A DNA stretch of 64,000 nt from the human T2T-CHM13v2.0 reference genome, Homo sapiens: NCBI RefSeq assembly GCF_009914755.1, contig NC_060939.1. One strand, 5' to 3'. The translations under genes and the position numbers were made by a program. Shown here piece after piece: positions 20,533 through 27,159 of the stretch (position 1 is its first letter; each line of letters starts with the position of its first letter). The notes beneath the pieces were generated by a model. The model saw only the letters and a list, made by a program, of their open reading frames with translations. It was not told the DNA's origin and did no database searches.

Positions 20533-20697
20533 ACCAGGTGTTTAATTCTGTTCTCTGTGGCCGTCCTGGGTTTCTGTGCTTTGCAGGATTTCTGCTACTC
20601 CTTTAATGTACTCAAGTGCTCTCCTTTGGTTACTTTAATCAAAATGTAGTTGTTTATTGTTTTGACTGTCTTTCTGAGGTAAGGAGACCAGAACTAA
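20533..20697 (+). repeat. Direct copy of 21182-21346
   Basis: About 11 mismatches in ~164 bp by manual alignment. Confidence 0.95.
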
Positions 20698-22377
20698 AAA
20701 CCCTAGAAGAAAACCTAGGCAATACCATTGCCTAGGTAGATGGAGTGGCTCTGCCAGGGCACCATTTTCCCAGGAGGCATTGCATGCTTCAGCCCTGGTC
20801 CCGAGGGGCAGGTCACAGCTGTAACTGGGAGAGGTACATGTGGTGGCTCCATTGCAACTTGGCCCCATGGAAGAGGATGTAGCAGCAGTTTGGCTCATTG
20901 ATGGTGGTCCACTAGGCAGGGGTGGTTGAGCACTGGAATGGAAGGGTACTGCAGCCACTCATCCCTGGAGCAGGACACTCTCTAGCAGTAGTTCCAGTTC
21001 CAAGAAGGCATAGCACAGTAGCTGTGTTGACCACAGTGGGTGAGGTACAGTGTCAGCTCCTGTTGTGGGGGAAGCACAGCTGTGTAGACTCAACTGGCTT
21101 ACTGCCTGTGAGGACATTTTCTCACATGGGGAAGTCCCTCCTGGTTCCAGCTGCTCCTGGATGGGAAATGGGGTGGTGGAGGCCAGGTGTTTACTTCTGT
21201 TCTCTGTGGCCATCCTGGGTTTCTGTGCTTTACAGGGTTCCTGCTACTCCTTTGAGGTACTCAAGTGTTCTCCTTTGGTTACTTTAATCAAAATGTAGTT
21301 GTTTATTGTTTTGACTGTCTTTCTGGGGTGAGAAGACCAGAACTAAGCGCTTCTAGTTGGCTGTCTTGCTAACATTACTCTCGAATTGCAGTATTTTGAA
21401 TTTGGGCCATTCTAATAGGTGAGTAGTGATGTCTCATTTTTATTTAAATTTTCAATTGCATAATGGCCTGTGGTATTGAACATCTTTTCATATCCTTACT
21501 TGCCATCTGTGTATCTTGGGTGAGATGTATGTTCATGTATTTATTTTATTTTTTACCACTTTTTTATTATTATACTTTAAGTTCTGGGATACATGTATTT
21601 CTCCTAATGCTATCCCTCCCTCAGCCTCCCCACCCCCGACAGGCCCCAGTGTGTGATGTTCCCCTCCCTGTGTCCATGTGTTCTCATTGTTCAGCTCCCA
21701 CTTATGAGTGAGAACATGCAGTGTTTGGTTTTCTGTTCCTGTGTTAGTTTGCTGAGAATGATGGTTTCCAGCTTCATCCATGTCCCTGCAAAGGACATGA
21801 ACTCATTTTTTTATGCCTGCATACTATTCCATGGTGTATATGTGCCACATTTTCTTTATCCAGTCTATCATTGATGGGCATTTGGGTTGGTTCCAAATCT
21901 TTGCTATTGTGAACAGTGCTGCAAAAAACATACGTGTGCATGTGTCTTTATAGTAGAATGATTTATAATCTTTTGGGTATATACCCAGTAATGGGATGAC
22001 TGGGTCAAATGGTATTTCTGGTTCTAAATCCTTGAGGAATCGCCACACTGTCTTCCACAATGGTGAACTAATTTATACTCCCACCAACAGTATAAAAGCA
22101 TTCCTATTTCTCCACATCCTCTCCAGTACCTATTATTTCCTGACTTCTTTTTAATGATTGCCATTCTAACTGGCATGAGATGGTATCTCATTGTGGTTTT
22201 GGTTTGCATTTCTCTAATGACCAGTGATGATGAGCTTTTTTTTTTGTCATATGTCTGTTGGCCGCATAAATGTCTTCTTTTGAGAAGTGTCTGTTCATAT
22301 CCTTCGCCCACTTTTTGATGGGGTTGTTTGTTTTTTTTTCTTGTCAATTTGTTAAAGTTCCTTGTAGATTCTGGATA

Positions 22378-22764
22378 ACAGAAATCCAGGATGGCCACAG
22401 AGAACAGAAGTAAACACCTGGCCTCCACCACCCCATTTCCCATCCAGGAGCAGCTAGAACCAGGAGGGACTTCCCCATGCAGGAAAATGTCCTCACAGGC
22501 AGTAAGCCCAGTTGAGTCCACACAGCTGTGCTTCCCCCAGAATAGGAGCTGACACTGTACCTCACCCACTGTGGTCAAACAGCTACTGTATTATGCCTTC
22601 TTGGAACTGGAACTACTGCTAGAGGGTGTCCTGCTCCAGGGATGAGTGGCTGCAGTACCCTTCCATTCCAGTGCTCAAGCACCCCTGCCTGGTGGACCAC
22701 CATCAATGAGCCAAACTGCTGCTACATCCTCTTCCATGGGGCCAAGTTGCAATGGAGCCATCAC
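22378..22764 (-). repeat. Inverted copy of 20840-21226
   Basis: About 14 substitutions + 2 single-base indels in 387 bp; ORF 22024-22578(-) repeats peptides seen in + ORFs 20922-21287 and 21050-21298. Confidence 0.97.
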
Positions 22765-23014
22765 CTTTTTTTTTTTTTTTAATTTAGATGTTCAATTGTC
22801 CCACCATTTGTTGAAATGACTATTGCATTGCTTTTGCTCCTTGGTCAATTATCATTTCCATGTCCATGGGATCAATGATCTGTTGAATATATTGATGTGG
22901 ATGTACTTCTGGGCTTTCTGTTTTGTTCCATTGATCTATTTGTCTGTTGTTTCACCAACACTTCACCATCTCGATTAATAAAGATTTATAGTAAGCCTTG
23001 AATTCAGGTAGCAT
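22762..23014 (+). repeat. Direct copy of 23940-24189
   Basis: About 15-17 substitutions, including a shared T-run and aatttagatgttca...aggtag. Confidence 0.97.
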
Positions 23015-25689: not shown

Positions 25690-26495
25690 AAAAAATTTTC
25701 CCAGCTTTACTGACATATGTCATCTTTTTTATGTTGCTATAACAGTACACCAGAGACTGGGTAATTTATAAATAAAATATATGTATTTGGCACACAATTC
25801 TGATGGTTCAGATTTCAAGATTGGGCATCTGTATTTGGTGAGGGCCTCTTGCTGCTTCAGCTTATAGCAGAAAGTGGAAAGGGAGTGGGCATGTGCAAAG
25901 AGATCACATGGCAGATGAGAGAGGAAGCCAAACTCACTTTTATAACGATGCACTTTCTAGTAACTTATTCAGTCCTATGAGAATGACAACTCACTCCTAG
26001 AAAAGGGCACTAATCTATGTATAAGGAATCTGCCTCTATGATCCAAACATCTACCACTGGGCCCCATCTCCCAACGTACCACACTGGGGATCAAATTCCA
26101 ACATATGTTTTTGGTAGGGTCAAACTATACCCAAACCTTTAGCAACATATAATTGAAAATTATTGTATAAGTTCAGAGTGTATAACATGACATTTTTGGA
26201 TGTGTATACACAGAAAATGATTATCAAAATCAAGCTAATTGATATATCCATCACCTTAAATAGCTATCTTTTTCGTATTTGTGAGTCTGGTGAGAATACC
26301 TAAGATCTACCCTCTTAGTAAGATATAAGTATACAATATATTATTATTAACTATTGTCACCATGACAGATACTTGGTCTCTTTTATTCAACTTATATTAA
26401 TAACCAAAGTTTGTCCTCTTCGACCAACATCTACCCATTTTCCAACCCCCAACCTCTGGTAACCACCCTTCTGCTCTCTGTTTCTATGAATTTAA
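25690..26495 (-). mobile_element. L1MA-type 3' end, interrupted by an MST LTR
   Basis: cccagctttactgacata|taattgaaaattattgtata...caagctaattgatatatccatcacct...ctctggtaaccacccttctgctctctgtttctatgaa. Confidence 0.75.
25718..26144 (-). mobile_element. MST (ERVL-MaLR) solo LTR
   Basis: TG...CA termini; exact 5-bp TSD ACATA at 25713-25717 and 26145-26149; gttgctataacagtacaccagagactgggtaatttata motif. Confidence 0.85.
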
Positions 26496-27090
26496 TTTTT
26501 ATAGAAAGTTTTAAAAAATATTTTAATATCCCTTAAGATTTCTTCATTGACCCATGTGGTATTTAGAAGTGGGTTGTTTACTCTCAAAATATTTGAGGAT
26601 TTTCTAGCTGTCTTTCTATTACTGATTTCTAGCTTAATTTCATTGTGGTCTGAAATAAGACAATGTGTGATTTTTATTCTTTTAAAATTGTTAAGGTGTG
26701 TTTTATTGCCCAGAATGTGGCCTGTGTTGATGAATGCTCGGTGCAAGCTTGAGAAGTACATGTGATCTGCTGCTATTGGATATAGCAGAGCATAAATGAC
26801 AATTATATCTAGTTGACTGATGGTAGTGTTGATTCTAACTATGTCTTTACTATTAATAATATTCTGCTTTCTGGATCTGTCCATTTTGAATAGAGGAGGT
26901 TTAAAGTCTCCAACTATAATAGTGGGTTTAACTTTTTCTCCTTATAGTTCTATCAGTTTTTATTTTATATTTTTGATGCTCTGTTTTTAAGTGCCTAAAC
27001 ATTAAGGATGGTTATACCTTCTTACTATATTGACCTTTTTACCATTATGTAATACCCCCACTTATCCCGAATAAATTTCCTTGCTCTTAA

Positions 27091-27159
27091 TTCATATGTT
27101 TGTTGGCTGCATAAATGTCTTCTTTTGCAAAGTGTCTGTTCATATCCTTCGCTCACTTT
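27091..27159 (-). mobile_element. Isolated 69-bp young L1PA ORF2 fragment without tail or TSD
   Basis: 63/68 identical to 22247-22314. Confidence 0.85.

What the first reader, a model, noticed from the sequence alone, without database searches (positions are those of the whole stretch)
20533..27159. Possible single germline event scattering templated patches over ~6.6 kb
Six copied segments (165, 35, 387, ~250, 79, 69 bp) at three separate sites all show about 4-8% divergence from their in-window counterparts, and all involve the same L1PA7 or its immediate flanks. Inference: one retrotransposition with clustered nearby breaks and multi-template repair, a miniature chromoanasynthesis-like event preserved in the germline. 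Repeat annotation would list these as unrelated L1 fragments, so the class could be under-recognised. I cannot establish novelty from sequence alone.
Basis: inference. Interest (0 to 1): 0.7.

Follow-up and report, generated by a model that had tools for sequence, protein, structure and literature searches.

The report
Complex inverted L1 insertion with flank copies
An old L1 jumping-gene insertion on human chromosome 15 carries, at its internal inversion point and just beside it, short copies of its own neighbouring DNA, a preserved germline example of the messy break repair that L1 insertion is already known to cause in cultured cells and tumours.

Summary
All six pairs exist. Four are true local copies: 164, 386, 79 and 243 nt, 46 mismatches in 872 (5.3%). 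Each matches its in-window partner at 93-96%, against at most 84% anywhere else in the genome. The two L1-versus-L1 pairs cannot be tied to the local L1. The 34-mer has 5,904 exact genomic matches. The 71-mer matches 39 other L1s at 88-96%.

The core is one 5'-inverted L1 (21539-23551) inside an older antisense L1, flanked by a 9-nt target-site duplication. Its inversion junction holds 723 nt (22378-23100): an inverted copy of the left flank, interrupted by a copy of the right flank. A 204-nt templated patch (20534-20737) lies about 20-30 nt from where the inverted copy stops.

The L1's own branch (3.3%) fits the copies' divergence, so one retrotransposition event with end resection, fold-back and template switches is the best reading. 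The 27092-27162 patch is unresolved.

This kind of event is already documented in L1-expressing clones and cancers. I could not test the primate phylogeny. The L1PA7 label is unverified.

The parts
19510..21385 (+). Old interspersed repeat, about 1.9 kb ('F1'), with ~74-nt internal tandem units. It forms the left flank and served as template DNA.
   Evidence: 63 genomic matches, non-local ones at 67-82%; 11 of 11 fetched copies are colinear with window 19510-21387. No tool named the family.
20534..20697 (+). X': direct copy of 21183-21346, the first piece of the site-1 patch.
   Evidence: 153 of 164 identical; 93% to its partner, against at most 82% elsewhere; absent at this position in 11 of 11 family copies.
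20696..20729 (+). 34-nt L1 sense fragment, joined to X' through a 2-nt overlap (AA).
   Evidence: 5,904 exact genomic matches, so its source cannot be told. The local segment 2 differs by 1 nt.
20730..20737 (+). 8-nt snap-back. 20728-20737 is the reverse complement of 20713-20722 inside the L1 fragment. F1 resumes at about 20734-20740.
   Evidence: reverse complement printed; register worked out. for where F1 resumes.
20758..21226 (+). Left-flank template of the inverted (fold-back) copy. 3 nt (20837-20839) are skipped in the copy.
21183..21346 (+). X: source of X'.
21363..21538 (-). Old L1 host element, left part. It ends with the left target-site duplication TGTTCATGT (21530-21538).
   Evidence: aligns to the full-length L1 at 9887-10081..
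21539..22377 (-). L1 segment 1: the 3' part of the L1 with an A-rich tail (read as T-rich on + at 21540-21572), equal to reference L1 9246-10152.
   Evidence: 88% over 787 nt; 40 genomic L1 matches at 90-92%. The tail is read.
22378..22764 (-). Inverted copy of 20840-21226. It joins L1 segment 1 bluntly (0-nt overlap).
   Evidence: 372 of 386 identical, 2 indels. (Jn1).
22765..23011 (+). Direct copy of the right flank 23944-24186 (old L1), starting at its T-run. It is entered through a 3-nt overlap (CAC).
   Evidence: 228 of 243. (94% against at most 84% elsewhere). (Jn2).
23012..23028 (.). 17-nt filler of unassigned origin.
   Evidence: (Jn3): it matches neither parent.
23029..23100 (-). Inverted copy of 20765-20836. 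It overlaps L1 segment 2 in TGGTACC (23101-23107): 4 perfect nt, or 7 with one mismatch.
   Evidence: 73 of 79 including the overlap. (Jn4).
23101..23551 (+). L1 segment 2: the inverted, more 5' part of the same L1, equal to reference L1 10631-10182. 29 nt of L1 are missing between the two segments.
   Evidence: 90% over 452 nt.
23553..27053 (-). Old L1 host element, right part. It begins with the right target-site duplication TGTTCAGGT (23553-23561).
   Evidence: colinear with reference L1 10073-13016.
23944..24186 (+). Source of the right-flank copy. It begins with T13 followed by AA, a textbook L1 endonuclease motif.
   Evidence: That this is the endonuclease motif is recalled, and also quoted (abstract).
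27092..27162 (-). Tailless 65-71-nt L1 fragment, cleanly inserted in the old L1. Its link to the main event is unresolved.
   Evidence: the old L1 is contiguous across it in 7 of 10 copies (offsets -9 to +3), with no target-site duplication, no tail and no deletion.

Best explanation
One L1 retrotransposition event inserted a 5'-inverted (twin-primed) L1 into an older antisense L1. The event is old: the local copies differ by about 5%.

Shown:
- A 9-nt target-site duplication brackets the whole composite, 21539-23552.
- The two L1 segments are adjacent in L1 coordinates, with 29 nt missing between them.
- Between the segments lie 723 nt made of an inverted copy of left-flank DNA, interrupted by a direct copy of right-flank DNA.

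Inferred mechanism:
1. Both ends of the staggered break were resected 5' to 3'.
2. The first-strand cDNA end (+ strand, at 22377) left the L1 RNA and folded back on its own exposed + strand at 21226. It copied that strand down to 20840.
3. It jumped, through a CAC overlap, to the exposed - strand of the other end at the T-run (23944) and copied about 245 nt.
4. It returned to its own strand 3 nt further on and copied 20836 down to about 20765.
5. It then annealed through TGGTACC to the twin-primed cDNA (segment 2).

A further break about 20-30 nt beyond the end of that copy (20533/20738) was patched, most likely in the same event. The patch comprises a copy of 21183-21346, a 34-nt L1 cDNA piece and an 8-nt snap-back.

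The 65-71-nt L1 fragment at 27092-27162 is a separate tailless patch at another break. Whether it belongs to the same event is open.
For: -: both flanks map to the same 9 positions (10073-10081) of the full-length L1 in the window, with 8 of 9 nt identical. The old L1 is therefore contiguous apart from this duplication.
- segment 1 ends at reference position 10152 and segment 2 at 10182, in opposite orientation. There is a 2-3-nt overlap (TG) at the internal priming site.
- the reference element is an L1, with ORF1, endonuclease and RT domains.
- every junction is mapped. The polarity of all three flank pieces fits templates exposed by 5' resection.
- the copies are local (93-96% against at most 84% elsewhere).
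- site 1 is an insertion in 11 of 11 family copies. Its right edge (20734-20740) lies 18-30 nt from the end of the inverted copy (20758-20765).
- the L1 terminal branch is 3.3% (about 41 substitutions in 1,223 columns, 12 copies). Doubled, that is 6.7% (CI 4.8-9.0), against 46 of 872 = 5.3% (CI 3.9-7.0). The four pairs are homogeneous (p=0.26).
- L1 insertions that keep their TSD and carry inverted duplications or DNA templated from near the integration site were observed experimentally. The authors attribute them to resection and self-annealing.
Against: - The longest arm is less diverged than the L1-based expectation: 14 of 386 = 3.6%, Poisson P=0.008 against 6.7%, and Fisher p=0.066 against the other three pairs. 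This needs gene conversion between the arms, chance, or a later origin.
- The fold-back junction is blunt (0 nt), whereas the published examples show 2-bp overlaps.
- The first-nick site (CATGT/CTTT) is a poor endonuclease motif, and the TSD is only 9 nt.
- 17 nt of filler are unexplained.
- The resolution of the dating (several million years either way) cannot separate 'same event' from 'soon after'.
- No outgroup genome was available.
- The order of template switches and the identity of the polymerase are inferred, not shown.
Confidence: 0.62

Rival explanations
1. Two or more steps. An ordinary twin-primed L1 inserted first. Later, one or several independent DNA-level events (replicative template switching, break repair with templated insertion, or ectopic gene conversion) added the 723-nt block at the inversion junction and the 204-nt patch at 20534.
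For: - The 386-nt arm is only 3.6% diverged, below the 6.7% expected from the L1 branch.
- Sen et al. read a similar locus (NCLI34, an inverted L1 with a 377-bp middle segment templated from downstream on the same chromosome) as insertion followed by gene conversion (passages).
- Inverted duplications with 1-15-bp microhomology are a common class of human variant without any L1 involvement: 277 events, median 284 bp (passages).
Against: - A later event would have to hit the L1 inversion junction exactly. Only 29 nt of L1 are missing there, and the two L1 segments share no sequence that could make a hotspot.
- The strands copied are those exposed at the L1 integration break.
- The site-1 patch contains L1 sequence and abuts the end of the inverted copy.
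- The pair divergences are homogeneous and compatible with the L1's age.
Confidence: 0.22
2. All six pieces, including the L1 fragment at 27092-27162 some 3.5 kb away, come from one retrotransposition event that made at least three clustered breaks. Each break was patched from L1 cDNA or local DNA.
For: - The 27092 fragment is a clean, tailless insertion without a target-site duplication, and with short overlaps at both ends.
- Verified insertions of this kind are rare: 21 loci found genome-wide since the split from rhesus under strict criteria. Two of them within 3.5 kb of one complex L1 is unlikely by chance if that rarity holds.
- The fragment resembles the closest relatives of the local L1 (5-10 differences in 71).
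Against: - The fragment is no closer to the local L1 (6 of 71) than to other L1s. 39 other L1s match it at 88-96%.
- There is no geometric link to the other junctions.
- Its own branch (about 4.5 substitutions in 71) is too imprecise to date.
- I could not measure the base rate of such orphan fragments.
- A diverged Alu tail lies 46 nt away, so another ORF2p-mediated event also happened there.
Confidence: 0.3
3. The flank pieces were reverse-transcribed from local RNAs, not copied from DNA. The L1 reverse transcriptase switched from L1 RNA to nascent transcripts of the two overlapping lncRNA genes: the + strand gene for the left-flank pieces and the - strand gene for the right-flank piece.
For: - The hub's annotation places the region in introns of LINC02253 (+) and LOC105371006 (-), so both template polarities exist as transcripts today.
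- Template switching between RNAs during L1 reverse transcription is documented.
Against: - It needs two different intronic RNAs from within 1 kb of the integration site, and a return to the first RNA 3 nt from the point of departure.
- Exposed DNA ends explain the local origin and both polarities with a single assumption.
- Expression at the time of the event is unknown.
Confidence: 0.08
4. Assembly artefact, or chance similarity among repeat-family members.
For: The region is built of repeats (an old L1, the F1 family and a younger L1).
Against: - The copies differ by 3.6-7.6%, so they are not collapsed or duplicated reads.
- The local copies are 93-96% identical, against at most 84% for any other family member.
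- blastn E-values run from 1e-26 to 0.
Confidence: 0.02

Closest known systems
Twin-primed (5'-inverted) L1 insertions (Ostertag and Kazazian 2001: recalled, and listed in the references seen. 1,047 polymorphic cases in Schloissnig et al. 2025, PMC12350158, passages read).
   Same: Two L1 segments in opposite orientation that adjoin in L1 coordinates with a small deletion (29 nt). An A-rich tail. A target-site duplication around the whole. A 2-3-nt overlap at the internal priming site.
   Different: Ordinary cases join the two cDNAs directly. Here 723 nt of flank-derived DNA sit between them.
[quoted passage not shown] Sections 7 and 13 of version 1 and passages of the 2026 version were read.
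   Same: The TSD is kept. The inverted copy of flank DNA lies inside the insertion. There is a resection plus self-annealing logic. Templates lie within about 1 kb.
   Different: - Their inverted duplications are on the reciprocal end and show 2-bp overlaps. Here the fold-back is on the primary (cDNA-bearing) end and is blunt.
- It is combined with twin priming, an excursion to the other end, and an extra patched break.
- Theirs are somatic or experimental. This one is fixed in the germline and old.
Endonuclease-independent ('non-classical') L1 insertions, NCLI (Sen et al. 2007, PMC1920257, passages read), including locus NCLI34.
   Same: The 34-nt and 65-71-nt L1 fragments are 3'-truncated, tailless, lack a TSD and have short junction overlaps. 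One carries extra non-L1 DNA (164 nt). NCLI range from 34 to 4410 bp, and 15 of 21 have 4-312 bp of extra DNA.
   Different: - 18 of 21 NCLI delete target DNA. Neither patch here shows a clear deletion.
- NCLI were defined with outgroup pre-insertion sites, which I could not check.
- Here the patches lie beside a classical TSD-flanked insertion.
Class 2 templated sequence insertions at double-strand breaks (Onozawa and Aplan 2016, PMC5110952, abstract read).
   Same: A DNA 'patch' fills a break, without a TSD or a tail.
   Different: Those patches come from distant regions. Here the templates lie 0.65-2.7 kb away.
Chromoanasynthesis, or replicative template switching (FoSTeS/MMBIR).
   Same: Serial template switches, with copy gains of nearby segments in both orientations and short or absent overlaps.
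   Different: The scale here is tens to hundreds of bases over 3-6.6 kb, not kilobases to megabases. The process is seeded by a retrotransposition break rather than by a collapsed fork.

Membership tests
Twin-primed 5'-inverted L1 insertion | Two segments of one L1 in opposite orientation, adjoining in L1 coordinates with a small deletion or duplication | tested here: met
   segment 1 ends at reference 10152 and segment 2 at 10182, with 29 nt missing.
Twin-primed 5'-inverted L1 insertion | A target-site duplication flanks the whole insertion | tested here: met
   9 nt, 8 of 9 identical. Both copies map to the same old-L1 positions.
Twin-primed 5'-inverted L1 insertion | A poly(A) tail at the 3' end next to one TSD copy | tested here: met
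   an A-rich tail of about 33 nt (read as T-rich on +, 21540-21572), interrupted by 5 other bases.
Twin-primed 5'-inverted L1 insertion | First nick at an L1 endonuclease motif (5'-TTTT/A-3') | tested here: not met
   the nicked strand reads CATGT/CTTT. This lowers confidence that the first break was a typical ORF2p cut. It does not affect the TSD or the tail.
L1 insertion with break-end remodelling (inverted duplication or templated flank DNA) | Extra DNA inside the TSD-bounded insertion, templated from within about 1 kb of the integration site, at least part of it inverted | tested here: met
   templates lie 312-780 nt to the left and 383-625 nt to the right of the site.
L1 insertion with break-end remodelling (inverted duplication or templated flank DNA) | Short microhomology at the self-annealing junction | tested here: inconclusive
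   0 nt at the fold-back junction, 3 nt at the second junction and 4-7 nt at the last.
Non-classical (endonuclease-independent) L1 insertion | 3' truncation, no poly(A), no TSD | tested here: met
   Site 1. Site 3: (contiguous host in 7 of 10 copies).
Non-classical (endonuclease-independent) L1 insertion | Pre-insertion allele verified in an outgroup species | not testable with these tools
   No primate genomes are held. Family copies served only as a proxy for the empty site.
Chromoanasynthesis / MMBIR | Several template switches producing local copy gains in one event | tested here: inconclusive
   At least 3 switches in the junction block and 3 in the site-1 patch. 'One event' is inferred from geometry and dating, not shown.
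L1PA7 subfamily | Diagnostic subfamily positions | not testable with these tools
   No repeat library is held. Only the terminal branch (3.3%) and 90-92% identity to the best genomic copies were measured.

The most novel reading that the evidence does not exclude
A single L1 ribonucleoprotein made at least three breaks within 6.6 kb. All were mended in one go from whatever lay at hand: its own cDNA, both resected flanks and snap-back synthesis. If so, orphan tailless L1 fragments of 30-70 nt and small local duplications within a few kb of inverted L1s are fossil footprints of collateral ORF2p damage in the germline. That class could be counted across primate genomes to measure how mutagenic each L1 insertion really was.
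Probability: 0.3. Interest if true: 0.6.

Novelty: new member of a known kind. Interest (0 to 1): 0.38.

Why it matters
Local inverted duplications and templated insertions at L1 integration sites have so far been shown mainly in L1-expressing cell clones and tumours. This locus shows the same footprints fixed in the human germline and old: the copies differ by about 5%. All junctions are readable, so the model of resected ends, fold-back and template switching can be checked base by base.

It also gives a concrete search image for repeat annotation, which lists such loci as unrelated L1 fragments: non-L1 DNA at a twin-priming junction, plus tailless L1 patches nearby. It does not reveal a new mechanism.

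Tried and rejected
I established L1 identity from stop-free frames of the full-length L1 at 9177-15395 and from DNA alignment to it.
- MAFFT did not align the old L1 across the site-3 patch. Pairwise local alignments did so in 7 of 10 copies. L032, L035 and L038 gave other placements in T-rich sequence.
- In the L1 dating, 8 of the 20 fetched copies were dropped for segment 2 because they are not colinear there. Segment 1 alone, with all 20 copies, gives 3.1%.
- The 20 copies were the best matches to the local L1, which may bias its branch slightly low.
- I considered and rejected an independent second insertion of the F1 family as the origin of X' (93% to X against at most 82% to any other copy). 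X' also does not end at the family's end: the family runs on to about 21385.
- I considered and rejected a simple truncated L1 that was later inverted. Its breakpoints would have to coincide with the L1/TSD boundary.
- The idea that the L1 RNA paired with the homologous old L1 to expose the right-flank template rests on only about 70% identity and is left as speculation.
- I did not attempt a base rate for orphan L1 fragments. Sampling 100 hits could not bound it usefully.
- Four literature searches found no description of this locus. That is not an exhaustive check.
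Full report
**Observation**

The repeat finder on 18000-30000 and exact alignments confirm all six pairs.

| Pair | Orientation | Mismatches |
|---|---|---|
| 20534-20697 / 21183-21346 | direct | 11 of 164 |
| 20696-20729 / 23354-23387 | direct | 1 of 34 |
| 20840-21226 / 22764-22378 | inverted | 14 of 386, plus two 1-nt indels |
| 22769-23011 / 23944-24186 | direct | 15 of 243 |
| 20758-20836 / 23107-23029 | inverted | 6 of 79 |
| 22247-22317 / 27092-27162 | direct | 6 of 71 |

A blastn self-comparison of 15400-32000 gave only 9 rows at 85% identity or more. 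All belong to this cluster except a weak 26-nt match.

**Which pairs are really local copies**

The assembly that holds the window could be searched.

- The left flank (query 20840-21346) belongs to an old interspersed repeat family with 63 matches. The two local partners are at 96% and 93%, and every other match is at 82% or less.
- The right-flank piece (23930-24200) is part of an old L1. Its copy is at 94%. Elsewhere the best match is 84% over part of the query and 75% over its full length.
- These four pairs are therefore true local copies.
- The two L1-versus-L1 pairs are different. The 34-mer has 2,959 + 2,945 exact matches in the genome, while the local L1 differs from it by one base.
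- The 71-mer matches 39 other L1s at 88-96%, and the local L1 is not among the 40 scored matches. Against 20 L1 copies it differs at 5-10 sites, and against the local L1 at 6.
- These two are L1 fragments, but their template cannot be named.

**Anatomy**

The window holds a full-length L1 on the minus strand at 9177-15395, with ORF1, endonuclease and RT domains. I used it as a ruler.

- Segment 1 (21595-22377, antisense) equals ruler 9381-10152.
- Segment 2 (23101-23551, sense) equals ruler 10631-10182.
- The two segments are thus opposite in orientation and adjacent in L1 coordinates, with 29 nt missing.
- An A-rich tail lies at 21540-21572.
- The flanks 21363-21538 and 23553-23790 are one older antisense L1. 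Both end on ruler positions 10073-10081. This gives a 9-nt target-site duplication, TGTTCATGT / TGTTCAGGT.
- This is a twin-primed, 5'-inverted L1. Its first-nick site (CATGT/CTTT) is a poor endonuclease motif.

**The junction block (22378-23100)**

Reading the plus strand:

1. After L1 segment 1 comes, bluntly joined, the reverse complement of 21226 down to 20840.
2. Then, through a 3-nt CAC overlap, comes a direct copy of 23944-24186, beginning at its T-run.
3. Then come 17 nt of unassigned filler.
4. Then comes the reverse complement of 20836 down to about 20765. This resumes only 3 nt from where the first tract left the template.
5. Then comes L1 segment 2, through TGGTACC (4 perfect nt, or 7 with one mismatch).

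The plus strand is the strand that carries the first-strand cDNA. The templates needed are the plus strand of the left flank, which is the cDNA's own strand and so a fold-back, and the minus strand of the right flank. These are exactly the strands that 5'-to-3' resection of the two ends of the integration break would lay bare. That polarity match is shown. The resection, the order of switches and the polymerase are inferred.

**Site 1 (20534-20737)**

- In 11 of 11 fetched copies of the left-flank family, the sequence at 20522 continues directly into that at about 20735-20755. The X region occurs only once in each, further downstream.
- So 20534-20737 is an insertion. It is fully accounted for by X' (164 nt), a 34-nt L1 sense piece (2-nt AA overlap) and an 8-nt snap-back that pairs with the L1 piece itself.
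- Its right edge lies 18-30 nt from the point where the inverted flank copy ends (20758-20765). If the two were unrelated, such closeness within a few kb would be expected about 1% of the time (my estimate).
- A simple reading, which is inference: the left-flank fragment was broken there too. The fold-back synthesis stopped at the remaining duplex. The minus-strand end at that break primed a short reverse transcript, in the same polarity as twin priming, and then copied exposed flank DNA.

**Site 3 (27092-27162)**

The old L1 is contiguous across this fragment in 7 of 10 family copies, with offsets of -9 to +3. The other 3 aligned elsewhere in T-rich sequence.

It is a clean, tailless L1 insertion of 65-71 nt, without a target-site duplication or a deletion, and with 2-4-nt overlaps. 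It fits the non-classical L1 insertions of Sen et al.. Nothing ties it to the main event except distance (3.5 kb) and the reported rarity of such insertions.

**Dating**

- The four local pairs give 46 mismatches in 872 = 5.3% (CI 3.9-7.0). Only 3 are at CpG sites. The pairs are homogeneous (chi-square p=0.26).
- I estimated the terminal branch of the local L1 from distances to 12 colinear genomic copies under a star tree. It is 3.3%, about 41 substitutions in 1,223 columns.
- Doubled, that is 6.7% (CI 4.8-9.0), which is compatible with the pairs.
- Against this reading, the 386-nt arm is low at 3.6% (P=0.008 against 6.7%; p=0.066 against the other pairs). Gene conversion between the inverted arms is the usual explanation, but I have not tested it.

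**Comparison with what is known**

- Mendez-Dorantes et al. report L1 insertions with inversions, inverted duplications and DNA templated from near the integration site. The TSD is preserved in these. They explain them by resection and self-annealing of ORF2p-made ends.
- Schloissnig et al. list 1,047 twin-priming events and 5,523 non-canonical mobile-element insertions, many with internal rearrangements.
- Sen et al. describe NCLI34, an inverted L1 with a middle segment templated from downstream, which they read as two steps.

This locus is therefore a fixed germline member of a known kind. Its particular combination is a fold-back on the cDNA-bearing end, an excursion to the other end and back, twin priming, and a patched satellite break.

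**Verdict**

The 'L1PA7' label, the primate-branch test and the enrichment test could not be done here. Interest is moderate.

Noticed in passing
window 23944-23958: The right-flank piece copied into the L1 junction starts at a T13 run followed by AA, a textbook L1 endonuclease motif. It lies 383-395 nt from the real integration site, which itself has a poor motif. This hints at a second, abortive ORF2p nick that exposed this template.
   Followed up: no
window 19510-21385: An old interspersed repeat of about 1.9 kb with ~74-nt internal tandem units (20232-20522, 20740-20836). It has 63 genomic matches at 65-82%, and 11 of 11 fetched copies are colinear. No tool here named the family. Between 21094 and 21131 the window copy has 37 nt where the one copy checked (L002) has about 127.
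   Followed up: partly
window 27209-27400: A diverged antisense Alu begins with its T-rich tail 46 nt to the right of the tailless L1 fragment. A second ORF2p-mediated insertion therefore happened at almost the same spot, probably at a different time.
   Followed up: no
window 22765-23011 vs 23101-23300: The old-L1 piece copied into the junction covers the same L1 region (ruler about 10445-10690) as the adjacent younger L1 segment 2, in the opposite orientation and at roughly 70% identity. This homology may have influenced the choice of template.
   Followed up: no
window 21558-21595: L1 segment 1 lacks about 80-100 nt of 3' UTR relative to the full-length L1 at 9177-15395: ruler 9299 jumps to 9381 across window 21596/21595.
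   Followed up: no
window 16000-18225: Another old antisense L1 piece (ruler 11652-13522) lies to the left of the F1 repeat. It is not the missing 3' part of the host L1, so the left flank is a mosaic of several old insertions.
   Followed up: no
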